This document shows positions 16,832 to 59,114 of a DNA stretch of 64,000 nt, one piece after another. Location: contig OZ237744.1 of NCBI GenBank assembly GCA_965178125.1, positions 558,001 through 622,000 of the forward strand, written 5' to 3'. The notes under the pieces were generated by a model. It was not told where the DNA came from, searched no databases, and was given only the letters and a program-made list of their open reading frames with translations. The stretch is from Bilabrum cf. latius. Its lineage: Eukaryota. The position numbers and the translations under genes are program-made. How positions within the stretch are numbered: the first letter of the stretch is position 1; each line of letters starts with the position of its first letter.

Positions 16832-17672
16832 TTACCCAGAGGAATCATCGCACATGGTTTCAAACCCAGAGCCTGCCCTGCCCCACGCAGGACACAGCAT
16901 CGGCGACGTCAGCACAGCACCCACTACGCCAGCCACTGCAAAGCCCATCCCGGCACCAACAATGACGTCTCCGATCCAATGGCAACCGAAATACACTCGA
17001 CCAATACCAACGATAGGAGCAAGCAAAATCACCCACCATTGTCCTGAGTACCACCCGGCTGTGAGGAGCAAAGCTGAGGCCATCGCCGTATCGCCCGATG
17101 GGAAAGCTTTCGTCATCCGCTCCAAGCTTCTCAGATCGAGCCATCTGTGGGCAGTGGATCCAATCCTTGGTCGTTCACGGCCAGCGATATGCTTCCATAT
17201 CCCGGTGACAATTGCACAGGATATCACGACGCAGGCTATCCAAACTCGCTAGCCGTTGTTCGCAAGCACAAGGAGCAAAACAAGAACAACTGCGACGCCA
17301 TACCACGAAAATGCCATTGTTGGGAGTAGCAGCATTGCCTCGACTGCCTTGATGTCAACCCTGCGTGGTGAAATGTGAAAATATCAGATGCGTGGAGGGA
17401 CTGCAGCAGACTCCGTCTGCACTGTCGCCTTACGCGCCTTCCACCGAAGCTTACCGGTGCACAGCTTGGCTGGCTTGGATGTCTTGCGACAGTAACTATC
17501 CAGTGCATGTGCTCGGATCCTATGCCCAGCCGTCTGGAGTCTCGGTTTGGTTGCAAAGCAGTTGCGACTCGTGGGCGGCACCGGATCGAACGACGCCAGA
17601 CCTTCCTGCCGCGGCACCAGTCCGCTTATATGGGATTTCTATTTCCTCATTGACTATTCGGGGTGCTGCCAT
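16832..17672 (-). CDS. PAP2-family lipid phosphatase-like membrane protein (intron 17361..17454)
   Basis: Motifs C1 'KHIAGRERP', C2 'FPSGDT' and C3 'GRVYFGCHWIGDV'. A 94-nt GTAAGC...CAG intron joins the two frames in correct phase. TAG at 17520, 17496 and 17249. Ends at TAA 16832. Confidence 0.8.
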
Positions 17673-17773
17673 ATCGCTTGAATGCGGGGTGTTCGCTTGC
17701 ATGCGAGGAATTTGCATTGCCTTGCAGTTGCTATGGAACAAGTGCTGATCAGATTGCGGCCAAATTCACGGCA

Positions 17774-20989: not shown

Positions 20990-21076
20990 CATCCGCGCTG
21001 TGCTTGAATCCTACACTAGGTCTACCATTAATTACTTGTCGCAATGAATCAATCAAATACGTTCACTGTGTCACAT

Positions 21077-23063: not shown

Positions 23064-26000
23064 ATGGTTAGCCTGTCGTCTGCCAGCCATATTGGAGTGG
23101 ACGAGCTCAATGCAATGGCTCAGGCTTTATATAACCCCGTAAGTGGTGATCATCAGTGTGCTGCTTGCTCATGGATCGATGTCCAGCTACGTGCGGCAGT
23201 TGCTGCCCTCATCACCCCCCCTTCTCAGCATACGAACCGCAACCCGGAGGCGTACAGCGGGTTACACCGTACTTTGTGTGCACCGTATGTGCATGTTTGC
23301 TCGGTGCAACCAACAGCGCCGAGCTGTCCCCCGCTTTGTGCCGTGCAAGGGATTTACAAGCCTGTAGCACAAAGCTCCGCCGGTGCCCAAGCCCCGCGGG
23401 TAAATATCGTTGATGTCGGCGGGCGTCTGGAGTTAGAAACTGATCTTAGGTCTAAAACTTTGCTCGGGATCGGACTGCAAGCGCTGTTTGCCATTGCAGA
23501 GGAGAATCGCGGGTGAGTGAAAGGGATAGGTTCAATTGGATGCAAGGATGTGTTAAGATATAATCTTGCTTGCACCAACTTTGAGCAGATACTATATTGA
23601 CTGGCGCAGGTACTTGAGCCTTTCAAATGCGCAACACAGCCGGCTGGCCCGGGCGTACCTGCAAGTTTGGAAGGGTACGCTGATTCCAGCAAAGACCGCT
23701 GCTGAGCGAGTGCTCAGCGCGCTTGGTGGCATGGCCGATACATCTTACTCTAGGGACTAGAAGAACGGTCAGAAGCCGACCCCGGAAGAGCTGCTGTCAG
23801 ATGCCAACGAAGTGAGCGGATGGAGTGAAGCCCTGTGCCTTCCCGTGTTGACTTCGGCTGTCACCGATCTCGTCTGATGTTTGCCAAATATTTGCTCAAC
23901 TCCCGCCTACTCCTCTTCGCAGCTTATGAGATTGACTAGATCGGTAATGGTGAAGCGGAACGAACTCACGCCACCATGGGTCGTGCACGTAGTCCGCATG
24001 ATCGTGGAGGCGGCAGCCGGCGTCCCAATCGGCTCTCTGCACGCTTACGTCACAAAAGCAAAGACGCAATCAAGAGACCGTCGTCCCCCAGTTGTTGTGA
24101 GGCACATTGGAGAGTCCCCGCCGCGACAGGGGGATCCCTCAAGCAACTCCAAGGGCAGCGCCGGGAAGCACGTTGGTGCTGCGAGCAGGAGGTAGGCACG
24201 GGAATGGAATGGCAGGTATCAGCACCCGAATCCAAGAAAAGATGAAAGCACATAGCCGCCGCACTCTTCAGGTCGCATTGTCGAGAGTGCTGCGTACTCT
24301 GGTGGGATGGATGGAGGTATCAAGGACGCGGGGTGGGAAGATGATGCTGGTGGTGAGCAGGTGGCAGCGCCCGCTGACGGCGGTCGCGATGCGGTGACCA
24401 TTCGAGTGGGGGAGGAATCTGAATGGAAGGTTCAGCCCGAGGGCCGGTACGCCAATAGCAGGCGAAAACAGTCCGGTGCGAATCAGGGTGAGAATGGAAA
24501 AGGCCCAATACGCCGCAAGAATCCCAAGCACGTTGTGGAGGACGGCCCTGCCCCCCATGAGCCACGAGGAGGTGGAGAGCCCAAGCACGAGCAGCGGGCG
24601 AGACCTCGCAGATAGAGGCCTCCAGCCAGCGACGAAGGAAAGAGTGCTGAGAAGAGAAAAGCGGTGGCTGAGGATCGGCAACGGTTGCAGGAGGCAATGG
24701 ATGCGAAGAAGCAATCCATTCAGGATGAGGCCGACAGCCCCCTGCGTGAGCCAGTGGATGCAACAGCCTCGTCGGATGCGGTCATGCAGCGCGCCCTCGA
24801 CACCCACGACGCTGCCCGCGTTGCCGCGGCCGAGATAGCAAAGGTAAAGGAAGCCAAGGAGAGATTAGAACGTGCTACGATGACCGAGCAGTTCATGGAC
24901 CCCACGCTTCTCTTGTCCGTATTCCTTGGATGTGCCGTGGCTAGCGTGGCGTCGTACTTGCTATACCTATCTCTGATTCCTACGAAGAAGCCCACCGTGG
25001 CCACTTTTGCTCATGGAGCAGAGAGTAGCGATGCAGTGGAAAGGAGTATGTCTGCCCAGTAGCGGAAGATCTACGAGAAGGCCGTTGAGTCACAAGTAAT
25101 CGACAAATCGAATTTGGAAGGTAGTCCACTTGCCCCGACTGGTGCTGAAGCCGACGCGGCTGTGGCTAAATGGAATGATGAAGCTAGGCAAGATGCAATC
25201 TAGCTTGCTGTGAAGCACGGCGATCGATAGAGCGGGTGTCCCTTCCTTTCAGGCGAGGTAGGTATCGATAAGATTGAAACTGCCGCTGCCGTTGACTCGG
25301 ACGAAAGTGATGGACTAGGCCTTGTGTCACGCCCCGTCACCACTGCGGACGAACCGCCAGTGCCCAAGCGTAGATCTTTGAATCAAGGAGCCGAAGCAGG
25401 GTCTGCTGACGCTGCTAGCATAAGTCCACCGTGTGGCAGCCCGGCATCGGAGGATACTTCTGCCCCGAAGCAGCAGCAGACAGCTGTCGCCCCTAGCTCG
25501 GCCTCCACTGGTTCTAGAAAGGAGAGGCCCGACTCTGAGAGGAATGCATCGCCTACTGGTGTGTCTAGCAAGAGAAAACGTGGCAAGCGAGGTGGCCGGA
25601 AAGGCAGGGTCAGCGGCGGTGACACCGAGCCCAGGTTTGTACCACCGACCAGTAAGGGGTCTGGCGCAGCAGCTGGTACGAGTCAGGGTGACACCGAGCC
25701 CAGGCTTGTACCACCGACCAGTAAGGGGTCTGGCGCAGCAGCTGGTTCGAGCCAGGGTCCCCAAGATCGGCAAACTGAAGGCGCAAATGCCAGACGACAG
25801 GGAGACGCGAAAGAAGTTTCCAAGCTATCAGCAGATGCCAAGCCGGCGCAGCACGGTTAGGCAAGCGAGGCTCCACGAGCGGCCAAGGCAGGCAAGGCAC
25901 CAGGGGCGGCCAGGTCAAGCGAGGCTCCACGAGCTGCAAAGGCAAGCGAGGCTCCACGAGCGGCCAAGGCAGGCAAGGCACCAGGGGCGGCCAGGTCAAG

Positions 26001-30732: not shown

Positions 30733-30753
30733 TTAGCTGGGCATGTGCCGAGT

Positions 30754-35800: not shown

Positions 35801-38800
35801 AGGCAATCAGGGACGTCGGTCTCACCGAGAAGGAGCACCAGCAGACGCAGACCCTGTCCGGAGGACAGAAGAGGAAGCTGTCCGTGGCCATCGCATTCAT
35901 CGGAGACTCCCGTCTTGTGCTGCTGGACGAGCCCACGAGCGGTGTGGACGCGTACAGCCGGCGGTCGATGTGGGACATCATCAAGCAGCGCCGGTCGGGG
36001 TGCACCATCCTGCTGACCACGCACTTCATGGACGAGGCTGACAAGCTGGGCGACCGTGTGACGATTGCGGCTCACGGCAAGATCCAGTGCAGTGGCACCC
36101 CGCTGTTTCTCAAGAGTAAGTACGGCGTGGGCTACCAGTTGAGCATCGTGAAGAAGACATCCCGCGACGGCGACCGTGACTGTGACGTCCGAGCCGTGAC
36201 GCGGCTCGTGCGTGGCCACGTCGAGGGCGCTGACATCGCCAGCAACGTGGGCACCGAGCTTATCTACCGCCTGCCTCTGGGCCAGGCCGCCAATTTCGCC
36301 GCCATGTTTGCCGCGCTGGACGAGGACATGCAGAAGGACACCGCCAAGCAGCAGCTGAACATCACTTCCTATGGCGTGAGCGTGACTACCATGGAGGAGG
36401 TCTTCCTCAGGGTGGCCCACGGCGAGGCCCGCGACGAAGTTCTCGGCTCGGCGCAAAAGGCCGCCTCTTCACGCAAAGTGGGACAGAAGCCCACTGGTGG
36501 GGGTGCTGCCGGCGCGGCAACGGATGCCGGTGAGGTGGAGATGACTGACATGGACGGCAAGGCCACTCCCGCCAAGGAGCCGGCCGGCGATCCCGAGGAG
36601 GGCGGCCTCAGGGCGCAGCCCCTGACCATCGACGCGGTGAGGGAGCGTGCCCGCCGCGATGCGGACAACCTATGCGTGCGCCACTTTATGGCCCTGCTGA
36701 CCAAGCGTGCCTGCTACATCAGGAGGGACTTCCTGGCCTTCTGCTTCCAGCTGCTCATCCCGACCATCGTCGTCATCTTCGCCCTGCTGCTCCTGCGCAG
36801 CGGAACACCCACGGAGTTCCCGGAGGTCGTGCTCGACACGGCGGGCGTGCAGTCGCGCAACCTCGACACGCACGTCCCCATCCTTTCCTACTACTCGACC
36901 AACCCGGCCGCCAACGGCTCAAATCCAGTCATCGTGGATCGCATCGCTGAGATCACCGACTCGAATCTGGTTCTAAACATGTTCGGATCCGACAGCGCCG
37001 AGCTCCCCACCACGGGCCCGCTGATCGACCAGCTCGAGTAGGATCTGGAGGACGAGGCTAACTCCGAGTCGGGCGCGTTCACGCCGTTCAGGCGCCAGCT
37101 GCAGGGCGGACAGGCGCTGCCCCAGCCCGCGTATGACTACGCCCGTCTCTCGTAGTACCTGATCAACAACAGGGAGGCCCGTGAGTCGGCTCAGATGGGC
37201 GCGTTTGCGTTCAAGTCCAAGCTCTTCAACAACATCCAGGACGGCGGTGCCACTGCTGCATCGTACACTGTGCTGCACAACACGACCTACTACTTTGGCG
37301 CCGGTCTGTGGCCAAACATCATGAACAGCGCGTTGTATCGAGAGGCAAGGCAGTCACGTAGCGAAGCCGTCGACGAGTCGACGCACATCACGATGGCCAT
37401 CCACCCGCTGCCGTTTACCGCCCAGCAGGAGCTGTTTGTCGGGTCGTTCATTTCGCTGTTTGCGGCTCTTGCGATTCTGGTCGCGTTCTCGTTCATCCCT
37501 GCTTCCTATGCTGTGTTCATCGTGAGAGAGAGGGAGGTGAGCGCCAAGCATCAGTAGCTCATCTCCGGCGTGAGCATCTGGGCCTACTGGTTCTCGACCT
37601 TCGTGTTCGACTTCGCAACTTACCTGGTCCCCTGCTTCCTGACCATTGCGGTGATTGCCGCGTACAACATTGATGTGTTCATCGACACGGCTGACCAGAG
37701 GCTCGCGGGACTTTTCCTCATCTTTCTCGCATACGGCCTGTCCGTCGCTGCCTTCACATACTGCCTGACGTACCTGTTCAAGTCGTACACCGGCGCCCTC
37801 GTGTCCGTGCTGGCCCTCAACATCTTCGCCGTGCTGCTGATGATCGCTTCTTTCGTGATGGACAAGATCAAGTCTACGTGCAGGGAGGACCGCGTCCTGC
37901 GGTACATATACCGGCTTATTCCCGGCTACGCTCTCGGCAATGGTCTTCTGAACCTAAGCTTTCTGGACTCGCTCGCCCTCCTCGACCGCATCTGCGACGC
38001 GCAGCACAACCCCGACACCGATTTTGGCCAGCTGGAGGACTACAAGGCGCTGGACTGGAACGCGCTGGGAGCCAACATCTGGATGATGCTGATTGAGGCT
38101 GTGGTCTACTTTTGTATCGCCGTTGGTATCGACTACATCCAGGCCAACCCGGCCCTTCTCCGTATCTGCAGTATTGAGAGCACCGTGGCCCCCCCGCCGG
38201 CCAAGCACGTCGACCAGGACGTGCGCGCTGAAGCGCAGCGCGTACAGCCGATGGAGGGCAAGGGCAGCGATGACATTTTGATCGTCAAGGACATCCGCAA
38301 GTGCTACCCGGGCGGCAAGCAGGCGGTCAAGGGTGTGAGCTTCGGCGTGCCTGTGGGCAATGTCTTCGCCCTTCTGGGCATCAACGGAGCTGGCAAGAGC
38401 AGCACCTTCAAGATGCTCTCCGGCGACACCGTACCCACGGACGGCAGTGCCATGGTGGCCGGATACGACGTGGTGGAGCAGCAGATGGACGTACGGAGGC
38501 TGCTGGGCTACTGCCCCCAGTTCGATGCCCTGCTGGACCTACTCACCGTCCGCGAGCACCTTGAGCTGTACGGCCGCATCAAGAGCGTGCCCGAGGATCA
38601 GCTGGAAGACCTTGTCCAGCAAAAGATGCGGCAGATGGACATCGTTGAGTACGAGAACGTGCAGTCGTACCAGCTTTCTGGCGGCAACAAAAGGAAGCTG
38701 TCCGTCGCGATCGCGCTGATCGGCGACCCGCCGCTGATCCTACTGGACGAGTGCACGACTGGCGTGGACCCTGTCGCGCGCCGAAAGCTGTGGACGGTCA

Positions 38801-39884: not shown

Positions 39885-41193
39885 ATGTTCATCGAAAAAG
39901 ATCTTCGCAAAGTGCAAGAAATTCTAGAGGATCCGTCTGATGACCGCAAGAAGCTGAAGCTTGGGCGCCGTGAAGCTCAGTTCAATGGAACTATTGAGGT
40001 CCTTACTGATGCAAGGTTTCACGATTCGCTAGGCAACTGCGAATACTTAAGTTTGTACAATAATAAGCTCCATACTATTCGCGGAATCGATGCCTTTCAA
40101 TTTTCGCCGCTCGAGTCCCTAAATCTGGGTAGAAATGAACTGAAGACGCTATCATCAGGATTGGGCAAGTTGGGCCATACCTTGCAGAGCCTGTGGGTAG
40201 AAGACAACTAGGTCAAGGGATTCCCTAAAGTGAGTTTTTAAAGATTCCGCCGAAGTGGATGGGATCCTCTTCCCATATCGAGTATACTCTGGCAGTAGCA
40301 TTTGAGCTTCGCAGGTGATTCTCTCGCTGAAACACTTGAGAGTCCTTCGGATGTGTAACAATCCCCAGATAGGCGGTATTCCTGATGGCATCCGAGCCCT
40401 TCCTCACCTGGAGGAAGTCGCATTCGAAGGTTGTGGAATTTCATCGATACCTGACGGGCTCTTGACACTGGGAAAGCTAAGACTGCTGATGCTCCGCAGG
40501 AACTAGATCAAGGATTTGCCCGAGCAAATCGGCAAGCTCGGATCAATACAGCGGCTTCATTTAAATGATAACTAGCTGCAGAAGCTCCCGGCCTCGATCG
40601 GGGACATGTCGAAGCTCGAAGTGCTGCTCCTCAACACGAACGAGCTGGACGAGCTGCCTGCTTCAATGGCTCGCCTGAGAAACCTTAAGACTCTCACTTT
40701 GAGCCACAATCAGATCAAGTCCGTGCCACCTGTCCTGCTGTCGCTGTGGCGCCCATCTTTGCCCGCCGGCCTGCGAGAAGCTGCAGAGGCCGTGACCATT
40801 GCTCTGTCGCAGTCGCAGTCGCCAGGGTCTCCAGGCCGGGGGCCTGCTGGAAAGCCCTCTGGCTCCGCAGCGATGGTAGGCGACGGGTCCGATGAGACCC
40901 CGGTGAAGGCAGGCCGTGAGTTTGCTGCAGGCCCAGCATCGGGGGCAGGCGCGGGTGGTGACGAGGGCGTCGATGATGGGGACAGCTTCGGTGCAGCGGA
41001 GGTGGCCGGCGAGACTATGTCCTTCGACCTCGATTTTACCGGGAATCCCGTTTGGAAGGACCCTGGTTCGCTGTTCACGCTCTCGTAGTACAGCACGCCC
41101 CTTGCGATGGAGTGGTCTAGGAAGAGGGCAGAGGCGGAGGAGGCGGCGAAGGCTGCCAAGCAGCGAGCCAGCAAGAAGGCGAGGGTGGGCTGA
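39885..41193 (+). CDS. Leucine-rich repeat protein (intron 40230..40314)
   Basis: Repeated LxLxxNxL/I..LP units. An 85-nt GTGAGT...GCAG intron restores the frame. TAG at 40209, 40504, 40573 and 41086; TGA at 41191. Confidence 0.85.
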
Positions 41194-41323: not shown

Positions 41324-44300
41324 TCAAAGCAGCAGCCACGCTGTCGACAGCACCGCATGCAGGCCGCCAGATTCGGCAAGGGATGGGTGGTGCGATTCTT
41401 TCGTCTCTGCATGATCGGAGGAAGTCCCCCCTTTCGGAATTTTGACCGAGCTGACCCCGAGGTCCTTGAATCCGAAGCCGCTCGTGCCGTACTGCTTGTC
41501 CTAGCTTGCCACCTGCAGCAGCATACATGATCCCGGCTCGAGCGTGTCTTCCGTCGCGGCGACCGCACGCGTGGAGGGCCTTCCCGCTCCCTTGGCCGAG
41601 CCACCAGTAGCACGAGCAGCAGTTCCAGACCTGCCACGACGGGCCCTGCCAGCCGACGGGCCGGATGTAGAGGCACGGTGCCCACGGCTGAACCACACAT
41701 TCTGTCCGCTATATTGGCCTACTGCCACCTTCAAGGAAGTGCGCTCGCTGGCGTTGACGAGTGCAACAACGCACATGGAGTCGTTCGTGAGCTGGTACAC
41801 CCCGGAAAGCGAGTCGCCTGTGCCGGTCGGCACCACCATCCGCACCCCGTGCAAGACACACCGCTGGATCATAGCACCTGCCACCACAGCCACGGGGACC
41901 TGCACAGGCGCAAGCCGGACAGGAGAGCTGCTGAGGCATTGCACCGTGAAAGGAGCGCCGCGTGGGTGCGCAGACTTCTCATCATCGCTGGCATACTTAG
42001 CCCGTGTCAGCTGTCCAAAGCCAAGAGGCAAGATCACCGTAGACGCGCCTTTGTCCTCGCGTGCAGTCTCCTCGTACTGGAGCAACACACTGTCATGAGT
42101 TTCCCTCCGTGCGTGGGCCAGCAGAGTTTGATACCCACATCTAAACTCTGGCTCAGCGGCTGCGGCAGAACCTGTGGCTCTGCCGGACACAGTCTATGGG
42201 AGCTCAAGGAGTGCCAGTCCGATATCCGTCATCGAATTTAGTTTCACCAGAGCCGATGGCTTGGGTTTTGCGGCGCCTGCAGTCCTTACCGCACTTGTAT
42301 GAGAGGGATGACTCGGGTGGGCTCCAGCGGTTCTATGAGTCGGTCTGCTAGATCCAGCCCCTGACGATGCACCCGTCTGCCTTGAGGACCTTGGGAGGAC
42401 GTGGCCATGACCCGTGGCTGCCGTTCGTTGCGAAGCTCGTGCCGTGTGCGAAGATGTGCGAGAAGCGCTGGATCGGCTGACTCGACCACGGCTCGCGGTG
42501 TGTGACTAGGCAGCTTCTCCCGGATCTGCGCCACCCATGGCTCCGTACAGGTCTGCAATGCCGCTCAATGCACCACCAGCGCTTGAGAGCCCACCTGACG
42601 TGAGTCGGCTGCCGCCGCGACCTGCCCTGGTCCGCGTGCTTCCAGCCTTCCTGGTGCGCCCAGTTCTACGAGCGGACGGCGACCCTGAGTGCAGCGGTGT
42701 CCTCTACCTTGACTCGGCATGAGAGGAGCCAGGCGATGCCACAGCGGCTGCAGCAATCTTCCGCCCCGCAGTAGCAGCGGCACCAGAAGTGGCACCACTT
42801 GCAGGGCTAGGGGGCGAACCCGCCCCTGTCCCGAAGCGCAGGCCCTGCGGCTCCTCCTCTGTCACTACCTTTGAATCATCGAAACGAACGGCAGGGGATC
42901 CCTCAATGTGTTCGTTCCACCAATGCATGAGGCGATCGGTGGGCTGCTGAATAGCAATCGTCATTTGCAATGAACTGCCGGGGCTGGCTGCCTCGACGCG
43001 GAAGGCTGGCCAATGCGTTGCGTCCTGGCTGTATGGGAGGTGCGCGGTCCGTCTTGCGTGCCACCAACCCTCGCGGTTTACCGCTAGCTCAACGACCCCA
43101 AAATACTTGCAGAAATCGCCAATGGACATGATGAAAGTGCCGTCTCCTTTGCGTCTCGCCCCCCGCACTAGAGCCGTGCGCCTTCCCCGTGAGCCTGCTC
43201 GGTGCTCGGTTGCAGCATCTACAGTGGAAGAAGCACTGCCCGCACCCCCAGGTGCAGATGAAGCTGCAGAGGCTGCGCCTGAGTCAGGGTACATGATTTC
43301 TTTGTCTGCCGGTTCCCAGCCCTTCCAATTCCTCGAGTACCTGCCAGTCCACCCGCCGTGACCCCACGGGTTTCGCAGGCGAACGAGCCGCACCCCCTTG
43401 TGCTCCAGAAGCGACAGTATGCTGTAAGCGTGGCGAATGCTCAGCCCGGCCGCTTCCGCCTCGCCTTGGATCCTCTTGAGCTCGGCACCTGATACCGCCA
43501 CCGTGTTCACGTCCACGCCGCACGAGGCGCCCATGATGTAACCCTCTCTGCGGTAGTGCAGCAGCCGCGCCCACACCTTGTTCACAATTGCGTCGCTCGG
43601 CGGGCCAGCAGCGCTCACTGGTGGGATTGGTGCCCCTTTCTTGACTCTGAGCGATGGTGGGAGAACGGTGCCGCCAGGTGCAGAGGCGCGGCGCAGCATC
43701 TCGGCTGCAGTGTGCATCGCCCGGGCGTGCTTGAGCTCCTCATTGGTTGCGCACACCGCGATGTGAAACTGCGTGGCTGGTGCACCGGTGAGAAGGCGGA
43801 ATCCCTCGGTGATGTGCCCCCCTTCGATGCTCGTGTAAGACCCGGCCACCTTGGCGCAAGCCTTCTCCACCAAAGGAACCCAAAGCTGCCTGCCTGGACC
43901 CCGCGTGAAGGCCATACGGCCAAATTCTGCATCGCATGGAATTCTGTCATCGATTGGCACTACGCACCACACTCCACCAACGCATAGACGGATCTGGTAG
44001 GCTCCCGCAGGTTGCACCTCAGCGGTCCTGACCACGTTCTTGAGCAGGTGCGGTCGCTCAGCCACTGCCGCCAGAGCAGACTGCAGCCAGCACGCACCCA
44101 GCGCCCTCTATATCACCGATGACGCGCCAGCTGGTTGCCCAGCGGAAAGAACCTGGTACTCGCTGTCGAAGCTGCCTGCGTCGTCCTGAATGGTTTCTGG
44201 TCGCCTCCAAGACACGGCGACCGTTTTATTGGTTTTAGTTCCACCCTTCACAATAACCATAACTACAGATGAATGATTTGCACCCAAGGAGTCTGAAGTG

Positions 44301-47055: not shown

Positions 47056-47169
47056 AGCTACACATGAAATCAACACAGGGCTCGTGTTACTAAGAGCAAG
47101 GTCAGCACGCTCCAACCAACCATTTAATCTTGAGTCACGAAAAGCAAATCCCATATGGTGGAGCATGCG

Positions 47170-50100: not shown

Positions 50101-53100
50101 GGCACCCGATTTCCTGGCGCCTGCATCCACAATACCAAGTGATGTTGCACCACCTTTAAACGTTGGAGTCCAGTCTTCATGGCTTGTAGTAGATGGATCC
50201 GGTCGTTCCTAAGGTGTGGCGACCGCAGCAGTACCGAGAGCCCCGGTGGGACTATCAGGGTCCAAGAAGTTATCTCGTTCTTCCACCGCGGTCACGTGAA
50301 CACCATCAGTCTGCACAGGCACCTACACATTACTCGTGTTGCTACCAAGCTCGTCACCTGCGGTCCGACCCGTGCTTTTGGAACCAGGCGGCGACCAGTC
50401 TTCGCCCCGCTGTCGGGGACGGGCACTTGCAACCTCCCTGCCTTGCATACTATTGCGGTTGCCAGATCGCGACCCAACAAAGGTTCGGGCAAGGGCAGAC
50501 TAGGCCCGATATGTGTCAGTACCGACGGATGCGGCAATGGCTTTTGCTGCGTCGCTTTCTGCCGAAGCGGCCAGCAGCATTGCCAGTTCGGTTTTTCGCT
50601 CATATTGACGAGCGACTCGCCTCACAGCAGATTTCACCCTCGAGCCTATTGCAGTTCTAGCTCTAACCTGCACAGCTACACGCCGAGCTTCCTCCTTGAA
50701 TTGACCGCGCCGTGAAGCCGCCTCCAGCTGGCGCTGCCATCGGCGAGCAGTGGTCAGCACGCCACGAGAATCAGCATCTGCATTGCCGTCACCGCTCTCA
50801 GTTGGCCCGGTATCCGAATTGAACCAGTCTAGGGCCTACTGCTTGGACTCTGCCTCCAACAATCTTGCATTAATGGCTGCACGTCTCTCGCGTTCCTCAC
50901 AAAGCTACTGCTCTGTCTACGACAGCTGCTAGGAAAGATGTGCGACACGGGCAATGGCGGTACTTTCCACGCCGACCAGCTTCTCCAGCGCTCTATGAGC
51001 TGCTGCACGTTGTGCTGCTTGCTTGTCTTCGCTAGAAGGATCAACCGACGACCCATCGGACGCAGCATCAATTCCTATCGCCGAAGAATCCGGAGAACCT
51101 TTGCCGGATTTCGCAGCGCTCTCGTCCTCGTGCACGCCTGCACCGCCAGCATCAGAGGCGCTGTCCGAAGTGATTGCTCGTTCAAGCTCCAGAGCTTGCC
51201 CTTCGGCCATCTTGCGAACATGTCGAGCAAATCGACCAAACGTGTTGTCGAGCTGCATCCGCTCAAACGCGACCTCCTTGTCCGCCTCTTCTCTGGCAGC
51301 TGCGATCGCACTGCTCGCCTTGGCTTGCTCCTCTGCTAGTCTAGCCTCAAGGTGCTAGATGGAGTCCATTGCTTTTCCAAGCTGGTGCTGCAGCCCGCGC
51401 ACGACTACTTCCGGAGCTTCAATGCCCCCTATGGTTGGAAGCTCTGGCATCGAAGCCAAACCGTCTGCCGCGGGGATCGACGACATCGAAGACCCTTGTC
51501 CCTCGCGGTCCATGGTGCTGAAGCTTCCCTTCCTCGCTTTGCGATCACTACGAGGTGACTAAGAACGATGCTTGCTCCCCCTCGGCGACTTAGCCTTACC
51601 TTTCTTTCTAGATCCAGAGACAGGGCGGCTCCTTGCGAGCCGAGTTCCAACCACCCTGCTGGACGGTCGCACACCACTGGCTGACCTGCTGGAATCCTGC
51701 GATACCAGCGACTCCGCCGAAGGTGCCGGGTTCAGTAACTAAGGGGCTGATGGAACGCCAGTCAAGAACGTTGCTCCCTCCCCTTGATGGTTCACTTGCT
51801 CATTGGACGCGGTAGCCCCTAGAACCGCTACGCTGGCCGTGGTGCTCTCGGGGCAGTCCACCGTCCACCCTTTCGGGTGCTGCTCCGCCTCCGCGGCATT
51901 CTCAAACAGGTCATGAGAGCTGGCTGCCCTGCCAAACCCAAACGAACTGCTACTTGCAGCTACGACCGACCGTCGACGAGCCTTTTCCATCATGCGCTCA
52001 GTAACTCTGTGCACCACATCGTGCACGCTGCTCCTTCGGCTCGAACTCGTGCCCCTGGCCGCCCCAAAGCCAGCAAAGGACTCGCCATCCTTAGGGTCCT
52101 TGGATAATGACAGGCCCGTAGCGCGCAGAATCTACTCCAAGCTCGCTCGTCGGCTGCGGTACTCGTCGAGCAGCTCTGTGACTCGCTCCCTGCTGGGCAG
52201 TCGCGCCTCCAGGAACGACTGCAACGAATCTTCAACTTTGCGAGCCTCGTCGTCACGTTCTTTGAGCTGAGAGGCAAACTCATCCCGTTGTGCCTTCAAT
52301 CGCTCCTAGAGACCTTCTATCTGCGAAGAAAGCTGCATGATGCGACCGGATGCCCTTGCGTCGGCGTGGGCCTGTTGGGCATCGCTAATTCGCCGCAGCC
52401 GGTCCTTGAGCATTGCGGCCTCTGCCTCTGCCTTCTCTGCTCTCTCATGAGACTGCAAAGCCCGCTAGACCTAATCGTTCCACTCCGCCCGACTAATCAT
52501 GTTGTTTTGGTCCAACAGCTGCTTTTCCACCCTACCGGCGCGTGCGTCTGCTGAAGCAAGTGCGCGCCTAAGCTCTGCGTTGGCCTCCTCAGCCTGGTGC
52601 AGCTCAACCTGAACCGTCTCTGTCGAGTGCACCTGCTTAGAGAGAAGCTGCTTGCACTGTGTCAGCTTGCTTCCGAGGTCTCTAGCCCGTGCCGACAGCC
52701 TGTCGACCATCCCCGCGGAGGCCTTCATGGTGTCGCGCACGCGCTGCAGTTCCTCCCGAAGAGCAAGGCCGCGCCTTCCCTCGCTAGCCATGGCCTCCAG
52801 CTCAAAGAGAGCGTCCACACATTCCCCAAACAGCGATCGCAGCTGCTTTGCTGCGTCCTCCTTTGATGCCTTGGACTCCTGGACTAGCTCGTCCAGCTGC
52901 TTGCGCCTGGCATCGAAGCGCGCCACCGCAGAAGAGCTAGCCAAGGCGTCGACGCTCGTGGCAGTTGACCCCTTCGCGGATATTGCATCGTCCGCCTCTC
53001 TGTGACTAGCAAGGTTGCGCACCGTTGCTTCAAGTGCGCTCCGCTGGGCCGCGGCCCTGCCCCTGTGTTCAGCAAGCAGGCCGAGCACCTCTTTCCTAGA

Positions 53101-54045
53101 AGTCTCCAGCTGTGCCCGAGCGATAGCATGTCGCTTCTTGTCATCAGCAGCTCCCGTGAGCGTGGACGACCGCGGCCCTTCTTCGTTCCCGTGCGCGCCG
53201 TCGGATGCACTGTCGACCGGTACGATGCTAGAGCCTACGATGCCCCTGCCTACGCCATGGTCCCTGACGTACATCGAGGAGCCGAACGTTCCTTGCACGC
53301 TACTCTTCGAGGCGGCTGCGCCTATATTGATGCCTAGGGCGCCGTGCTCGCGTTCGATCGCGGTGTCAACGGCTCTGGCTGACTCCCTGTACCGCTCCAT
53401 CGCCAGGTCTGCCTCCTCTTGTAGACGCGCTGTCCGCGTTCGCAACAGCTCCTACTCTTGCTATACTCTCTGGCGGTGGGCAGTTTGTGCCCGCACGCGC
53501 TCGTCCAAATCGTCAAACTTTCTGGCGACCGAATTCGCCAGAGTCGATTCTTTTCCAATGAAGCTATCCCCGCCAATGATGATCGAGCTGGACATGTGGG
53601 ACCGTCTCGTTTCCATCATGCCTAGGCTATCAACGCTCTCTCGTTTCGACAGGACTGCATCGTCGCTATCGGAATCCGCATTGGCCGAGGCTCGAGGAGT
53701 GGACTACGTGGTGTGCGGTCTCTGTCTTGACGGAGATGGCTGGCTGCGGCGCAAACCTCCTGGCCGACTCGACCTTGAAGCCATGAACTTCTTTCTTACG
53801 CTCTTTGGAACCTTCTTGCGTATACCCTTTGGATTATTTGACACACTGGCCTGATATTGTTTCCTCATCCTCGGCAGTCTAGATTCAGAGGCCTCAGAGG
53901 TCATTGATTTCTGCGGAGTAGAGCCGGCCTTGCTTCTTGCAGCAGCCATGGCCGCCTCCCTTCTTGCTTTCTGCGGTTCTAGGGCATGATCGACCATATA
54001 TGAAGGGATGCCATAGTTTAGAAGTTTCTGCTTTGCCTGTCTCAT
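47170..54045 (-). CDS. Large (~2,290 aa) coiled-coil/low-complexity protein of unknown function
   Basis: Ten ORF-track fragments from 53704..54057 to 47221..47403 share one frame. The junctions I checked contain only TAG. ATG 54045, TGA 47170. E/Q/R/A/L-rich heptad-like stretches. Confidence 0.7.
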
Positions 54046-54176
54046 TGATTCATGCACAATTCCTTAAAGTGAGTTGCGTCCGTTGGATGGTCGCAACGAA
54101 CGTTCCAGTGAACGGCGGTCGCACGTGCTGCGCAGCACGCCACACGACATCTATAAATAGCCCCATGGCGGGCAGC

Positions 54177-56855
54177 TTACTTCTTCGATTTCCCTTTCCT
54201 TCCGCCCCCCTTCCCCTTCTTTCCTCCAAGCGCGCCGCCCACGGCCTTCTCTTGAACAACAGCCTTGCCCTCCTTCGACTCTGCCTCGGCCACTGCAGAT
54301 GCTTCAGCTTCCGCCCCGCCGGATGCGGCCCCCGACTGCACTACGGCCTGCACGGAGGCAGGGGCGTCACCTTTTCCGCTCATGAAGTCTCCCATCGCCG
54401 CCTCGGGAAGCCCCAGAGGAAGACTTGCCTCCACTCGGAAGTTGGGGTCGCGGGAACGGGCCGCCCGAATGGCCGCTACAAGTCCAGCGTCTGTGACGAG
54501 TGGGAGATGTGCAGCGCCCAGGAAAGAGACCTGCTTGCAGCCCTTTGCCACCGTCATGAGTCCTTCGTCTGTCACCTGCGGGCAGCCAGCGATGACCAGC
54601 TGAACCAGCCGACCGCTGCTCGGACCCCTCGTGATCTGCTCCAAGCCGGCGTTGGTGAGTCCAGCCAGGCCCGGGATATGCAAGCTGTGCAGACGGGTGC
54701 AGTGGCGCACGATCCAGCCGACGGCAGCGTCACCGTAAGGAACAGTCTCTGGCCTGCTCCTCTTCTTGCCCCCCTTGCCTCCCTTCTTCTTGCTGGGCTG
54801 CTGCGCTGTGGCGGGTTTGCCGTTGCTCTTGGGCGCACCGCCCTTGCCAGCGCCACCCTTCTTCTTCCCGCCCTCCTGACCGCCCGCCTTCGGGCCGTTG
54901 GTAGACGCCCCGCCAGAGCCAGAGGCGGCGGCCTTCTTCTTGCCTCCCCCCCTCCGCCTCCTTCCCCGCCGTTTGGTGGCAGCAGCCGCGTCCGCTCCGC
55001 CAGCCAGTAGCTCGTCCGCCCCATGGGTCGGCATCACCCCAAGCTCGCTGCGGGCAGCAGACGGCGGGGCGTCGATGGCGCGGGCGACACGGTACTCCAC
55101 CTGCTGGTGGTTCCTGAGAGTGGTCACGCCTGCGATCAGGACCTCGAGCCTAGTGCAGCCCCTCGCCAGCACCTCGAACCCCTCGTCCGTCAACCCCTCG
55201 CAGCCCGAGACGTCCAGGCGGGTAAGGTTCTGGGAATAGGTCGCCAGCACACCGAGGGCAGCCGACGTGATAGAGCACCCTTGCAGGGACAGGTCCAGCA
55301 TGGACCGACCGGTGCCGAGCATCACGCTGCCAACGCCATCGTTGGTCACAGAGGGATTGCCCGCAAGAGACAAGCGGATGAGTCGGGGCGAGCGGTAGGC
55401 GAGCGTGCACAGCGACTCGTCGCTGATGCCGGTATACGACAGGTCCAGCGCACGCAGGCCGCGCAGCCGAACGAACATCGCGCCCAGAGCGAGGTGCGCG
55501 AAGCCGCGCAGCGGCCCGTGGCTGATATCCAGCGAGGTTAGGTTCGGGCATCCCTGCGAGATGGCTGCGAGAGACGCGTCAGAGAGCGCGCCGCACTGGC
55601 GGAACTGCAGTGACGTCAGCGAAGTACACTGGGGCTGCACCTCCTCCACCACGTTCTCCACTCTGATCCCCTCACACTGGAGCTGCCTCAAGTGCGGGCA
55701 GTCCGACAGCAGCGCAGCCACGCCGTCACCCGTCACGGAGGGACAGTACTGCACGGCAATCGACTCGAGATCCTCGCAGCACTCTGCGATCTCCTCCAGG
55801 CCCTCGTCGGTGATGCCCAGAGCGTAGGACACGTCTAAGCGGTGGAGGTACTCGAGGTGCTGAGCGATCTGGGTGAGGGAGTCGTCGGTCAGCCTGGGAC
55901 AGCGACTGAGCACCAAGATCCTCATGTCCCGGCAGGACCGCGAGAGCTCCTGCACCCCGGCATCTGAAATCCGCACGCACCCGTCTGCGTTGAGCATACG
56001 CAGCCGAGGGCAGCTCCGTCCGATCAGGGCCACGGCCTCGTCGCCCAGGTTGCAACCGCCCACGTCCAGGGCGAGCAGGTCTCTACAGCTCTGCACCAGG
56101 GCGTCGATGCCCCGGTGCGTGACGAGTGGGGACGAGACCTTGACGTAGGAGAGGAACGAGTGGGACGCGCCGAGCGCCTCGAGCCCCGCATCGGTGATCT
56201 GGCACCTGCTCGCGTCTAGCCTGGTCAGATGAGGACAGGCGGATAGTGCACTGAGCCCTCGATCCGTGACTCGCGGTGCAGACCGATCAGAGACACTCGC
56301 TCGCACAACCGGCGGCCCCGGTTGATCGGCTCCTGACGGAGCGGTTGAAGATCCTGCCGAAGGCAATCCAATGGAGCTGGTGTCCGCGACTGCACGCTTC
56401 ACCAGCTGCAGGGCATCGCCCATTTCAGCGCGTTCAGTGTCACCTTCGGCAGATGCTGCTTCGCTTGCACTCCCAGATCCTACCGTCTCGACAGCCTTGA
56501 CCGCGCTTCCGGCCGGGACAGCGATCGTAGGCGGGTGGTGCGAATGCTGCTCTTGCACGAATTCGTCCGCGATGAGAACTTCTAAGTTGGGGCATTTGCC
56601 ACCGATAGAGGCGATGGCATCGTCCGAAACGAAACAGCCGCGAGTGCTAATGTCGTGGATGTGTCGGCCATGGGCTGACACAACCCAGTCCAAAAGTTTC
56701 GGGACCTTCCTCGGAGGCGCTGCCCCCATCGAACCAAAATCAACTGCTCTCCAGTTCCTGTCGTCATCCAAGGCATCGCGCCAACCTTTCGATACCAGCC
56801 GCAGCTGCACTCTTTCGCAGAGCGGGAAGAACTAGAACACGCTTGACATTGCCAT
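54177..56855 (-). CDS. F-box/LRR-repeat (FBXL-like) protein
   Basis: F-box-like 'VF[TAG]FFPLCERVQLRLVSKGWR' followed by many cysteine-containing LRRs ('ITDxGLxxL...CxxL'). Ends at TAA 54177. 5' end uncertain. Confidence 0.9.
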
Positions 56856-57050
56856 GGCGTTTTACCCTTTGAAACACCAAAAATTGCGTTGTTTTAGATC
56901 GAATCCAGGATACAGCTGCCAAAAATTCTTGGCAAACGTTTGATCGGGGCCGATATTTCTTGCAAAGGAGCGCATGGAGGCCAGGCTGTTCTTTTGTAAG
57001 GCGCACTTTCAAATCAATCGAAACAGCAAGTTTAGCACTGTATTGATAGC

Positions 57051-59114
57051 ATGCGGTGCGCCAGAAGAACAAGGGAGCTGCTATAGTCGTATTCTAGGTT
57101 TTTACTCCAAGGTAGCGGCAGGTCACTTCGTTATGCATCTTTGTCACTTCGACAACAGTTACTTCAGTACCCCAGGCGGAGCCCGAAGTCCTCGCATGCA
57201 TTTTCTTCCCGTGTGCACGGAATAGGCATATCTACCCATGCATTGGGCAAACTAAGTATAAGATAGTTTGTATCAAGTACTGCTCTGGCTGCATCCAATG
57301 TTTAGAATCCGACAGAAAAGGCACGCCGTCTGGCTGCTGCTAAGCCTTCGCTGCCCAAGAAGTTAGGTATTCGCCGGAGGAAGATTGGAAGAATACACCC
57401 CCCGACACGACCTGCTGAAGAGGTGTCTGAGGATGCAGCTAGAATGGCGAAATGGGTACAGGAATCAGGTGGAAGCAAGAAGAGTTCCGTGTCAACGGTT
57501 GCTCTTGCTTTGGCCGGCAACTCAGTGATAACAGTGCTGAAATTTATCGTGTGGATCCGCACCGGCTCCAGTGCAATGTTCGCTGAAGCAATTCATACGC
57601 TCATGGATTCTGTTAACCAGAGCGTGCTCCTGCTGGGGCTCCGACATTCGTCGGCTGCACCGGACTCCAGGCATCCGTACGGATACGGCAGGGCAGCTTT
57701 CTTCTGGGGACTAGTCAGCGCCTTAGGGACATTTTGGTGCGGCGCGGGAGTAACGACAGTGCATGGGCTCATGCAGCTGGCGAACGTGGTGCGAGGCGAG
57801 CCAACGGAAGTGCTGGTGAACTGGGAATCTTGGGCTGTTCTAGCTGCATCCCTCGCAATTGATGGGGCTGTGCTCGTGCAAGCGACCCAGACTCTTTTTA
57901 GGAGAGCAGAAGCCGAGGATCCAGGAGCTGCTGCTGTGATTCAGGAGGCGGTGCAGGAGGTTTTGGCACAAGGCAAGCAGCAGCAGCAGCAGAGCCAGCA
58001 GCAGTAGCATTCATCTGGGTCTGACGGGTAGGAGCAGGCAGCATCGACCGATAGCACCCGATCAGTGCAAGCCGTGTAGCCTAGTTTATCAAGCGGACAA
58101 GGTGGAATGCCTGCGCTACCGCATGCCAGGCGCTGGCCGCTGGGACCGAGGCTACTGGAGGGGCTGTCCCAAGGCTGGATGCATGAGGACGTGGCAAACA
58201 GCGGCGCATCGTGGCCTGTGCGCACGAAGGCATAGATCCTCCGAACATGGATGCGATTTAAGCTTTTATACAGGCACCTGATGACGACAAATGATCCGTT
58301 TGTGGTGGCTGTGTTCCTGGAGGACTCGGCTGCGTGCCTGGGTGTCATCCTTGCCGCTGGCGGGATCGCACTGACACACATCACCGCGAACCCAGTCTTC
58401 GACGCGCTTGCTTCCATTTGTATCGGGGGCCTTCTCGGGGGTGTGGCTGTGCGCATGGTCAAAATGAATCAAACATTCTTATTGGGCCAGTCAGTGGATG
58501 CCGAGACAGAGCATGACATCCGTGACATGATCGATGCATGGCCTTCGATAGAGCATGTGGGCGAAGTGCAGACGCAGTGGCTGGGACCGAAGGCCTTTTC
58601 GTTCAAGGCAGAAGTGGATTTTGACGGGACGTGGCTCGCAGCCAAGCTGCATTCTGAGTACCAGAACCATTTCTTGCAGTCCAAGGACCTTGCTGCGGAT
58701 CTGCCAGTCCTGCTATCGTACTACGCCGAGGATGTGACCCGTGTCGTTGAGCGAGAGCTCAAGGACGTGGAAGATACTATTCGATCCAGGTATCCACATG
58801 CTGCCTTCATCGAACTGGAACCGGATAGCACGGAGAGCGACAGGCACATGGTGCAGGACATGGGGGACGAGCGCAAGAGGGCAACGGAGCGCAGATTCAT
58901 CATGCGGGCCTTCACCGATGTGCTTGCGCAACGACGAGCACGGAAACCGGACGACCCGAACGTCGACGCCGAGCAGCAAGTGCTGAAGGAGTGGTTCGCT
59001 AAGGCACAGCACGGGAAGGAAGATTTCCCTAGTGATAATCGCAACGCGTCGGGGGGCTAGGCTGGGGCAGACGAGAAGAGTATGGACTTGATCAAGCGCG
59101 GGGGAGTGGAGTAA
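57051..59114 (+). CDS. SLC30A9: Cation diffusion facilitator, ZnT9/SLC30A9-like, with probable mitochondrial presequence
   Basis: 'SAMFAEAIHTLMDSVNQ', 'HPYGYG', 'VFLEDSAA', 'LLGQS', 'FKAEVDFDG'. One frame from ATG 57051 with 8 TAGs; ends at TAA 59112. Confidence 0.85.

What the first reader, a model, noticed from the sequence alone, without database searches (positions are those of the whole stretch)
16832..59114. UAG and UAA are uncoupled: TAA still terminates
Seen: three genes end at TAA after a complete domain (PAP2 16832, F-box/LRR 54177, ZnT9-like 59112), and the other 15 end at TGA. I found no TAA inside any reconstructed coding frame, although CAA and TAG are both common. Established: in most recoded eukaryotic nuclei (ciliate-type table 6) UAA and UAG are reassigned together. 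Separate meanings are rare; the fornicate Iotanema spirale is an example with UAG=Gln. Inference: this organism needs an eRF1 that recognises UAA/UGA but not (or poorly) UAG, plus a dedicated CUA-anticodon tRNA.
Basis: partly seen in the sequence, partly recalled or inferred. Interest (0 to 1): 0.88.

Follow-up and report, generated by a model that had tools for sequence, protein, structure and literature searches.

The report
TAG codes glutamine; TAA still stops
In this compact protist genome the stop codon TAG has become a glutamine codon, while its twin TAA, together with TGA, still ends genes; this split is rare and was known before from only a few unrelated microbes.

Summary
My 18 gene models cover 19,470 codons. 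In frame they carry 133 TAG, 0 TAA and 0 TGA. About 56 TAA would be expected if TAA were used as CAA is relative to CAG. Three genes end at TAA at exactly the stated coordinates and 15 end at TGA.

TAG reads as glutamine. It sits on a Gln that is invariant in 99 of 99 ABCA homologues and on the calpain oxyanion-hole Gln in 9 of 10 homologues.

TAA terminates. Two of the three TAA genes face a converging gene 134-195 nt away. Homologues do not continue past the ends. Transcript-like contigs of the ZnT9-like gene stop before any in-frame TGA. A syntenic relative (metagenome contig L001, 69% protein identity) also has 24 in-frame TAG and 0 TAA, and its ZnT9 orthologue also ends at TAA.

This code (UAG to Gln only) is already described for Iotanema, Protocruzia and some phyllopharyngean ciliates. 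What may be new is the lineage: best protein matches are stramenopiles (Cafeteria, a bicosoecid, oomycetes), and four searches of the held library turned up no such report.

The proposed eRF1 and tRNA(CUA) mechanism could not be tested, because no genome is held.

The parts
16832..16834 (-). TAA stop codon of the PAP2-family gene (CDS 16832-17335, 167 aa, 1 in-frame TAG)
   Evidence: Pfam PAP2 E=1e-15, domain complete at residue 154 of the 183-residue frame. Of 150 homologues, 115 end at or before the query's end and 6 run more than 20 aa further. Three 94-95% identical fragments end at the same residue. Read-through would run 676 codons antisense through the GH115 gene.
54177..54179 (-). TAA stop codon of the F-box/LRR gene (CDS 54177-56855, 892 aa, 1 in-frame TAG)
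   Evidence: Pfam F-box and LRR_6. The coding score falls from +0.48 in the last 44 codons to -0.16 in the 44 codons after TAA. The next gene's ATG lies 131 nt downstream. A transcript-like contig, 54028-56949, runs colinear through the TAA.
59112..59114 (+). TAA stop codon of the ZnT9-like cation-efflux gene (CDS 57051-59114, 687 aa, 8 in-frame TAG)
   Evidence: Pfam Cation_efflux. In A1 most of the 12 aligned homologues end before the query's end; P0003 and P0016 carry longer, unrelated tails. Transcript-like contigs end at 59192 (X5) and 59181 (X6), before the next in-frame TGA at 59685. The orthologue in L001 also ends at TAA.
59181..59183 (+). second in-frame TAA, 23 codons after the ZnT9 stop, in the AT-rich spacer before the converging gene
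37555..37557 (+). in-frame TAG in the ABCA transporter gene (protein position 1260) at an invariant Gln
   Evidence: Aligns to Q of human ABCA1. The column is Q in 99 of 99 aligned homologues.
44108..44110 (-). in-frame TAG in the calpain gene (protein position 116) at the Gln of the Q-G-x-L-G-D-C-W block
   Evidence: Aligns to Q of calpain-2. The column is Q in 9 of 10 homologues; the tenth has its Q one column away.
13976..16636 (+). GH115-family gene ending at TGA and converging on the PAP2 gene (195 nt spacer)
   Evidence: Pfam Glyco_hydro_115 E=2.5e-35; coordinates
59249..64000 (-). large gene of unknown family (11 in-frame TAG) ending at TGA 59249-59251 and converging on the ZnT9-like gene (134 nt spacer)
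   Evidence: its orthologue in L001 also ends at TGA
40230..40314 (+). inferred 85-nt GT..AG intron of the LRR gene (39885-41193), carrying an in-frame TAA
   Evidence: Two LRR-coding frames are joined by GTGAGT...CGCAG. There is no RNA evidence.

Best explanation
The window is nuclear DNA of a compact, GC-rich, intron-poor eukaryote whose best protein matches are stramenopiles. It reads UAG as glutamine and keeps UAA and UGA as terminators. This is the mapping I recall as NCBI table 15.

Shown here:
- TAG is a frequent in-frame codon and makes up about 15% of Gln codons.
- Where TAG falls in a conserved column, that column is Gln.
- TAA never occurs inside a coding frame.
- TAA closes 3 of 18 genes, and TGA closes the other 15.
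- A diverged, syntenic relative shows the same pattern, so the code belongs to a clade and not to one strain.

Inferred, not shown:
- A tRNA-Gln with anticodon CUA decodes UAG. CUA cannot pair with UAA, and the tRNA probably derives from tRNA-Gln(CUG).
- eRF1 has lost or weakened UAG recognition while still reading UAA and UGA, as proposed for Iotanema spirale (T32G in the GTS motif; PMC5304391 passages).

My confidence is about 0.9 for the code and about 0.7 for this mechanism.
For: Counts. Treating TAG as sense raises ORFs of 300 aa or more from 26 (11,205 aa, longest 1,088) to 38 (27,768 aa, longest 2,795). In frame over 19,470 codons there are 133 TAG, 0 TAA and 0 TGA, with CAA/CAG = 221/522, so about 56 TAA would be expected. 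The same coding sequences hold 159 out-of-frame TAA. TAG positions are spread evenly along genes (KS p=0.57).

TAG = Gln.
- The ABCA column is Q in 99 of 99 homologues and in human ABCA1.
- The calpain column is Q in 9 of 10 homologues and in calpain-2.
- L001 carries TAG at Q190, a column invariant in all 13 rows of A1.
- In window-versus-L001 codon alignments, 13 of 34 partners of a TAG are CAG or CAA, against 3.8% Gln codons overall. The next most common are Arg (5) and Ala (4).
- TAG lies inside or beside poly-Q runs in the ZnT9-like and ABCA proteins.

TAA = stop.
- Positions in TGA-delimited frames.
- Converging genes end 195 nt (PAP2/GH115) and 134 nt (ZnT9/gene 18) away.
- PAP2 homologues: 115 of 150 end at or before the query's end. 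Three 94-95% identical fragments end at the same residue.
- Most aligned ZnT9 homologues end earlier than the query.
- The coding score drops after each TAA: +0.21 to -0.23; +0.48 to -0.16; and +0.35 to +0.10 over 22 codons and -0.09 over 189 codons.
- Contigs of runs X5, X6 and X7 break at gene borders and differ in depth between neighbouring genes, while the DNA run X1 runs on. The ZnT9 contigs end at 59192 and 59181, before the next in-frame TGA at 59685.

Relative L001. It has 24 in-frame TAG and 0 TAA in 1,876 codons, where 9.3 TAA would be expected. Its ZnT9 orthologue ends AAA TAA AAA at a different tail position, with further in-frame TAA 8 and 62 codons on. Its gene 18 orthologue ends at TGA.
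Against: - Only three TAA ends in the window and one in L001.
- All three window TAA codons follow a G, giving GTAA, the start of a splice-donor consensus, and the genome does have at least one inferred intron.
- The F-box case alone is not decisive. The next in-frame TGA (54042-54044) lies 44 codons on and still inside the transcript-like contig.
- The 22 codons after the ZnT9 TAA score +0.10, which is not clearly non-coding.
- That X5-X7 are RNA is the tool's guess, and X5 is flagged 'probably DNA'. My reading of them as transcript-like rests only on where the contigs break and on their depths.
- Most TAG partners in the window-L001 alignment lie in poorly aligned stretches. Only 6 are in good context, and 2 of those are Gln.
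- No tRNA, eRF1, proteomic or ribosome-profiling evidence is available.
Confidence: 0.88

Rival explanations
1. Both UAA and UAG are glutamine codons (ciliate or hexamitin type, table 6). TAA is merely rare because the genome is GC-rich, and TGA is the only real stop.
For: TAA is the rarest of the three stop trinucleotides on both strands: 438, against 1,006 TAG and 1,758 TGA. GC3 is 0.63.
Against: - In frame there are 0 TAA where about 56 are expected from the CAA:CAG, AAA:AAG and GAA:GAG ratios of 0.38-0.45.
- L001 has 0 where 9.3 are expected.
- The same genes hold 159 out-of-frame TAA.
- Read-through of the PAP2 and ZnT9 TAA codons would run antisense into the neighbouring genes.
Confidence: 0.03
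2. The three TAA codons are not stops but the first bases of introns (G|GTAA...). The true ends of these genes would lie in downstream exons that close at TGA.
For: All 3 TAA codons follow a G, giving GTAAC, GTAAG and GTAAT. One GT..AG intron is inferred in the LRR gene.
Against: - 7 of the 15 TGA stops also follow a G, and G makes up 33% of third positions.
- The contigs of X5, X6 and X7 run colinear through the F-box and ZnT9 TAA codons, and no joints were reported in 46000-64000.
- Only 131-195 nt remain before the next gene.
- The L001 orthologue ends AAA TAA, with no GT.
- Homologues show no missing C-terminal domain.
- No intron lay in the stretch I laid reads on, so these runs gave no positive control for splicing.
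Confidence: 0.04
3. UAG is ambiguous: sense inside genes and also a terminator near mRNA ends, as in Condylostoma. Some genes would then end at a late TAG and not at the TGA or TAA downstream of it.
For: Several genes carry a TAG within about 20-35 codons of the assigned stop: the ZnT9-like gene, the ABCA gene and the gene at 47170-54045.
Against: - 0 of 18 window frames and 0 of 2 L001 frames need TAG as their end.
- TAG is spread evenly along genes (KS p=0.57).
- The TAG in the ABCA tail is followed by more Gln codons.
- This cannot be excluded without profiling data.
Confidence: 0.04
4. TAG encodes another residue (Leu as in the rhizarian exLh, Ser as in Scotinosphaera, or Glu, Tyr or Lys), or the TAG codons are nonsense mutations in decaying genes.
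For: Most TAG codons fall in unconserved stretches where no residue can be assigned. That holds for all 8 in the ZnT9-like gene and all 3 in the GH115 gene.
Against: - Every TAG that falls in a conserved column falls on Gln.
- Decay would add TAA and TGA as well, yet there are 133 TAG against 0 TAA and 0 TGA in frame.
Confidence: 0.01

Closest known systems
UAG-to-Gln-only nuclear code of the fornicate Iotanema spirale (PMC5304391)
   Same: UAG is read as Gln, and UAA and UGA are kept as stops. The same mechanism is inferred: a tRNA-Gln(CUA) and a change in eRF1.
   Different: The lineage is unrelated: a metamonad there, stramenopile-like best hits here. UAA is described there as the dominant stop (passage), whereas TGA closes 15 of 18 genes here. 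Genomic DNA and a relative's contig are available here, where that paper worked from transcripts (it says the genome had still to be sequenced). The eRF1 of this organism was not seen.
UAG-to-Gln-only codes in ciliates: Protocruzia tuzeti and two phyllopharyngean lineages (PMC11687900, Discussion passage)
   Same: The same codon mapping, arisen independently several times.
   Different: Those are ciliates. Nothing here points to a ciliate: the sequence is GC-rich, and the best hits are Cafeteria, a bicosoecid and oomycetes.
NCBI translation table 15 (recalled from memory, not from a call)
   Same: TAG = Gln, with TAA and TGA as stops. The tool's hand-made code TAG=Q opens all the frames.
   Different: A table is only a mapping and says nothing about lineage or mechanism.
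Coupled UAR-to-Gln codes (table 6: many ciliates, Hexamita, Streblomastix, ulvophytes; PMC11687900 and PMC5304391 passages)
   Same: A stop codon is reassigned to Gln, and TAG sits on Gln columns.
   Different: In those codes TAA is a sense codon as well. Here there is no in-frame TAA where about 56 would be expected, and TAA closes genes.
UAG-only reassignment to other residues: rhizarian exLh (Leu) and Scotinosphaera (Ser) (passage)
   Same: UAG and UAA are uncoupled, and UAA is kept as a stop.
   Different: The residue differs. Here TAG aligns to Gln, not to Leu or Ser.

Membership tests
UAG-to-Gln-only nuclear code (Iotanema type; table 15 mapping) | In-frame UAG is frequent in intact genes and aligns to Gln in conserved columns | tested here: met
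   133 TAG in 19,470 codons. ABCA column Q in 99 of 99 homologues. Calpain column Q in 9 of 10. L001 has TAG at the invariant Q190.
UAG-to-Gln-only nuclear code (Iotanema type; table 15 mapping) | UAA is absent from coding frames and is used as a terminator | tested here: met
   0 in-frame TAA where about 56 are expected. 3 of 18 genes end at TAA, with geometry, homologue ends and contig ends in agreement. L001 has 0 where 9.3 are expected, and its orthologue ends at TAA.
UAG-to-Gln-only nuclear code (Iotanema type; table 15 mapping) | UGA is kept as a terminator | tested here: met
   15 of 18 genes end at TGA. The contig of the gene at 47170-54045 ends 62 nt after its TGA.
UAG-to-Gln-only nuclear code (Iotanema type; table 15 mapping) | A tRNA-Gln with anticodon CUA is present and no tRNA with anticodon UUA | not testable with these tools
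   ARAGORN found 0 tRNA genes in the window. Rfam found 0 matches in the window and L001. No whole genome is held.
UAG-to-Gln-only nuclear code (Iotanema type; table 15 mapping) | eRF1 N-domain altered so that UAG is no longer read (for example T32G in the GTS motif of Iotanema) | not testable with these tools
   eRF1 is not in the window or in L001, and no genome is held. The Iotanema observation is from PMC5304391 passages.
Coupled UAR-to-Gln code (table 6) | In-frame UAA as well as UAG at Gln positions | tested here: not met
   0 in-frame TAA in 19,470 codons of the window and in 1,876 codons of L001.
Ambiguous stop/sense codes (Condylostoma or Blastocrithidia type) | The same codon serves both as a sense codon and as the terminator of genes | tested here: inconclusive
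   No gene needs TAG as its end (0 of 18 in the window, 0 of 2 in L001), and TAA and TGA are never internal. Termination at a late TAG cannot be excluded from DNA alone.
Stramenopiles (lineage assignment) | Phylogenetic placement by marker genes or rRNA | tested here: inconclusive
   Best-hit votes only. ZnT9: oomycetes and Hondaea. ABCA: Bicosoecida sp., oomycetes and Blastocystis, but also hits from an insect, an annelid and a Symbiodinium record. Calpain: Cafeteria roenbergensis at 33% identity. No tree was built, and the window holds no rRNA.

The most novel reading that the evidence does not exclude
This would be the first change of the nuclear genetic code found in a stramenopile. A bicosoecid-like (Bigyra) clade, with at least two well-diverged members (the window organism and the L001 organism, 69% identical in ZnT9 and 39% in a fast-evolving neighbour), reads UAG as Gln and keeps UAA and UGA as stops. 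TAG already makes up 15-28% of Gln codons, so the change is old and fixed. That would add another independent origin of the rare uncoupled UAG/UAA state. Because genomic DNA is in hand, it would be a case where the tRNA(CUA) and eRF1 changes can be read directly.
Probability: 0.45. Interest if true: 0.7.

Novelty: new member of a known kind. Interest (0 to 1): 0.6.

Why it matters
UAA and UAG almost always change meaning together, and cases where they part are few. Such cases are the natural experiments for two questions: how eRF1 tells the third base of a stop codon, and how a single tRNA(CUA) can capture one stop codon.

A further independent case would be useful for three reasons. It lies in a lineage with no reported nuclear code change. 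It has a compact genome that can be assembled. It has a diverged relative sharing the code. Together these would allow a direct comparison of eRF1 N-domains and tRNA-Gln gene families between relatives with the reassigned code and with the standard code.

There is also a practical consequence. Standard gene callers cut this organism's proteins at every TAG. The database already holds its PAP2 gene only as a 94-aa fragment that starts after the TAG. Annotation and phylogenomics of this clade therefore need the right table.

Tried and rejected
- Whole genome: none is held, so there was no genome-wide tally, eRF1 or tRNA set.
- My own slips: one search failed on a frame error and was corrected. 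One search failed because a search term was too long and was replaced. Alignment A2 used the wrong half of the calpain gene and was discarded; it was redone.
- TAG sites with no information: all 8 in the ZnT9-like gene lie in unconserved parts. Of the 3 in GH115, two lie beyond the PDB alignment and one sits in a gapped, unconserved stretch. 3 of the 4 in ABCA lie in gapped columns.
- Sequencing runs: no RNA holder is listed, and every kind label is a guess. All laid runs are contigs, so no poly(A) ends, strand or expression level could be read.
- AATAAA as a general 3' signal: present within 150 nt after only 3 of 18 stops, so dropped.
- The G before each TAA as a splice donor: considered and set aside (see rivals).
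I stopped that step, so the ZnT9 end argument rests on the 12 homologues aligned.
- Literature: four searches found no report of a nuclear UAG reassignment in a stramenopile. A search for two transcriptome accession prefixes seen among the ABCA hits found nothing. Supplements were not seen.
Full report
WHAT THE WINDOW IS

The 64 kb window is 55-62% G+C and is packed with long frames on both strands.

With all three standard stops there are 26 frames of 300 aa or more (11,205 aa in all, longest 1,088). With TAG read as sense there are 38 (27,768 aa, longest 2,795).

Pfam finds eukaryotic families:
- an ABCA transporter
- calpain
- F-box with LRR
- a La-domain protein
- TMEM65
- PAP2
- a cation-efflux (ZnT9-like) protein
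- an FMO-like protein
- a GH115 hydrolase
- a reverse transcriptase inside a 2,741-codon frame

I settled on 18 gene models (coordinates). At least one intron exists, inferred in the LRR gene at 40230-40314 (GTGAGT...CGCAG, 85 nt). The other frames are continuous.

CHECK OF THE OBSERVATION

The remaining 15 models end at TGA and none ends at TAG.

Over 19,470 in-frame codons I count:

| Codon | In-frame count |
|---|---|
| TAG | 133 |
| TAA | 0 |
| TGA | 0 |
| CAA | 221 |
| CAG | 522 |

The A-ending to G-ending ratios for Gln, Lys and Glu are 0.42, 0.38 and 0.45. A TAA used like TAG should therefore appear about 56 times (Poisson probability of zero about 3.5e-25).

TAA is not absent from these genes. 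The other two frames of the same sequences hold 62 and 97 copies.

The argument would be circular if the frames had been cut at TAA, so I repeated it on frames delimited by TGA alone. There the only TAA codons are:
- five within the first 80 codons, all upstream of the ATG I used
- the three terminal ones
- one 23 codons after the ZnT9 stop
- one far beyond the PAP2 stop, antisense to the neighbouring gene

The interiors of the long frames have none. Those interiors are 1,098, 2,795, 888, 1,111, 614, 1,341, 496, 1,963, 1,063, 869 and 1,583 codons.

WHAT TAG MEANS

Most TAG codons lie in unconserved stretches. Those that fall in conserved columns all fall on Gln.
- The TAG at 37555-37557 aligns to the Gln of the A-K-H-L-Q block of human ABCA1. 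That column is Q in 99 of 99 aligned homologues. I aligned 99 of the 120 listed hits, those 1,700-2,300 aa long.
- The TAG at 44108-44110 aligns to the Gln of the Q-G-x-L-G-D-C-W block of calpain-2. It is Q in 9 of 10 homologues, and the tenth has its Q one column away.
- TAG also sits inside or beside poly-Q runs in the ZnT9-like and ABCA proteins.
- TAG positions are evenly spread along genes (KS p=0.57).

TAG makes up about 15% of Gln codons: 133 of 876.

DOES TAA TERMINATE?

PAP2.
- The Pfam domain is complete.
- Of 150 homologues, 115 end at or before the point equivalent to the query's end, 29 run 1-20 aa further and 6 run more than 20 aa further.
- Three database fragments 94-95% identical to it (two from Logan, one from ENA) start just after the gene's TAG and end at the same residue. 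They come from close relatives, strains or alleles whose genes a standard gene caller truncated.
- Reading through the TAA would continue for 676 codons antisense to the GH115 gene, whose own TGA lies 195 nt away.

ZnT9-like gene.
- The query continues 96 residues past the invariant E-L-E-P block.
- Most of the 12 aligned homologues end earlier. Two (P0003 and P0016) have longer, unrelated tails.
- The next in-frame stops are a second TAA at 59181-59183 and a TGA only at 59685-59687. That TGA lies deep inside the converging gene, which ends at 59249.

F-box/LRR gene.
- The protein ends in a Lys/Gly-rich tail.
- The next gene's ATG lies 131 nt on.
- The next in-frame TGA is 44 codons on and overlaps that ATG.
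- This case alone would not be decisive.

Coding score. A codon-usage score drops across each TAA much as it does across the TGA stops:

| Gene | Before TAA | After TAA |
|---|---|---|
| PAP2 | +0.21 | -0.23 |
| F-box/LRR | +0.48 | -0.16 |
| ZnT9-like | +0.35 | +0.10 over 22 codons; -0.09 over 189 codons |

EVIDENCE FROM PUBLIC RUNS (WEAK, BUT IT POINTS THE SAME WAY)

Seven runs from three studies hold half or more of the words of the stretch, and none is on record as RNA. I laid four of them on 46000-64000.

The DNA-like run X1 covers the region with contigs of 30 kb and 79 kb at even depth.

X5, X6 and X7 break at gene borders, and depth differs from gene to gene. In X5 the pieces are:
- 46000-47050
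- 47108-54050
- 54028-56949
- 57049-59192
- 59211 onward

Their depths range from 14 to 37. This is what transcript assemblies look like, but the tool marks the RNA status as a guess and X5 as 'probably DNA'.

On that reading:
- The ZnT9 message ends at about 59181-59192 in two studies, before any in-frame TGA.
- No joints (splices) were reported anywhere in the stretch, including at the two TAA codons.
- No intron lay in the laid stretch, so there was no positive control for splicing.

A RELATIVE WITH THE SAME CODE

A scan of metagenome contigs with the ZnT9-like protein returned one locus, L001 (8,350 nt). It is syntenic:
- the N-terminus of the F-box gene at its left end
- the ZnT9 orthologue (69% identical)
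- the converging large gene (39% identical)

Findings in L001:
- Its two complete or near-complete frames hold 24 TAG, 0 TAA and 0 TGA in 1,876 codons. 9.3 TAA would be expected.
- One of its TAG codons lies on Q190, which is invariant in all 13 rows of alignment A1, where the window has CAG.
- Of 34 aligned partners of a TAG in either species, 13 are CAG or CAA. This count leaves out 5 gaps and 2 shared TAG columns. Arg (5) and Ala (4) come next. Most of these columns are poorly aligned; only 6 are in good context, and 2 of those are Gln.
- The ZnT9 orthologue ends AAA TAA AAA, at a different place in a diverged tail, with further in-frame TAA 8 and 62 codons on.
- The large gene ends at TGA in both species.

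The pattern is therefore a property of a clade. The TAA of the orthologue is not preceded by G.

RIVALS

1. Both UAR codons are sense and TAA is merely rare. The counts reject this.
2. The TAA codons are intron starts (all three read GTAA). This is unlikely, for these reasons:
   - 7 of the 15 TGA stops also follow a G.
   - The contigs are colinear through the TAA codons.
   - Very little room is left before the next gene.
   - The L001 orthologue has no GT before its TAA.
   - Homologue ends show no missing domain.
   
   Spliced reads were not directly testable here.
3. TAG is ambiguous, both sense and stop. No gene needs it, but DNA alone cannot exclude it.
4. TAG means another residue, or the genes are decaying. 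The Gln columns reject the first, and 133 TAG against 0 TAA and 0 TGA in frame rejects the second.

MECHANISM

Not shown here.

By established reasoning, set out in PMC5304391 (passages read), a codon set in which UAG is sense and UAA is stop requires a tRNA with anticodon CUA. That anticodon pairs with UAG but not with UAA. The set also requires an eRF1 that no longer competes at UAG.

For Iotanema that paper reports a T32G change in the GTS motif. For the rhizarian exLh the passages I read say its eRF1 shows no obvious deviation in those conserved elements.

The window and L001 hold no tRNA gene or Rfam match, and no genome is held.

WHAT IS KNOWN, AND NOVELTY

Passages read in PMC11687900 list these cases:
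- UAG-only reassignment to Gln in Iotanema spirale, Protocruzia tuzeti and two phyllopharyngean ciliate lineages
- UAG to Leu in a rhizarian and in ciliates
- UAG to Ser in Scotinosphaera

The code itself is therefore known.

The lineage seems different:
- The best named matches of the ZnT9-like protein are oomycetes and the labyrinthulid Hondaea.
- Among the named ABCA matches are a bicosoecid, oomycetes and Blastocystis. An insect, an annelid and a Symbiodinium record also rank high.
- The best calpain match is Cafeteria roenbergensis at 33% identity.

These are best-hit votes, not a phylogeny.

Four full-text searches found no report of a nuclear UAG reassignment in a stramenopile. The library is incomplete and supplements were closed.

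VERDICT

- The mechanism remains inference.
- I class it as a new member of a known kind. Interest is moderate to high because such uncoupled codes are few and this one comes with genomic DNA and a diverged relative.

Noticed in passing
window 5862-14087 (-): A single 2,741-codon frame holds a reverse-transcriptase domain (Pfam RVT_1, E=3.8e-17) and 21 in-frame TAG, with no TAA or TGA. It looks like an intact LINE-like retroelement written in the host's code.
   Followed up: partly
window 39885-41193 (+), intron 40230-40314: The LRR gene is split into two frames joined by an inferred 85-nt GTGAGT...CGCAG intron that carries an in-frame TAA. It is the only intron I recognised in the window. There is no RNA evidence for it.
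   Followed up: partly
window 13976-16636 (+): A GH115-family glycoside hydrolase with what looks, by eye, like an N-terminal signal peptide (no prediction tool was run) and a C-terminal Fn3-associated/CHB_HEX_C domain. I recall this family as mostly bacterial and fungal. It carries 3 in-frame TAG, so it is written in the host code. Possible old gene transfer.
   Followed up: no
window 46000-64000, runs X1 and X5-X7: Near-identical sequence is held by runs filed under three different coded organism names from three studies. The organism may live in cultures or samples named after something else, or it may be filed under several names.
   Followed up: no
window 56498-56660: The DNA-like run X1 splits here into two contig versions at about half depth that differ at 6 positions within 100 nt. 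This suggests two haplotypes.
   Followed up: no
window 57049-57051 and 54045-54050: Transcript-like contigs of X5 begin 2 nt and 5 nt upstream of the ATG of the ZnT9-like gene and of the gene at 47170-54045. Neighbouring contigs overlap by 23 nt at 54028-54050. This hints at very short leaders and overlapping transcription units, but contig ends are poor evidence.
   Followed up: no
window 52-2223 (-) and 23926-27903 (+): Long tandem peptide repeats lie inside coding frames: about 11-residue G-R-G-V-H-G-D-G-G-V-S units in the first gene and S-E-A-P-R-A-A-K-A units in the La-domain protein (translations).
   Followed up: no
L001 685-2600: The spacer between the F-box and ZnT9 genes is about 1.9 kb in the relative, against 196 nt in the window. 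It holds no Pfam-recognisable frame.
   Followed up: partly
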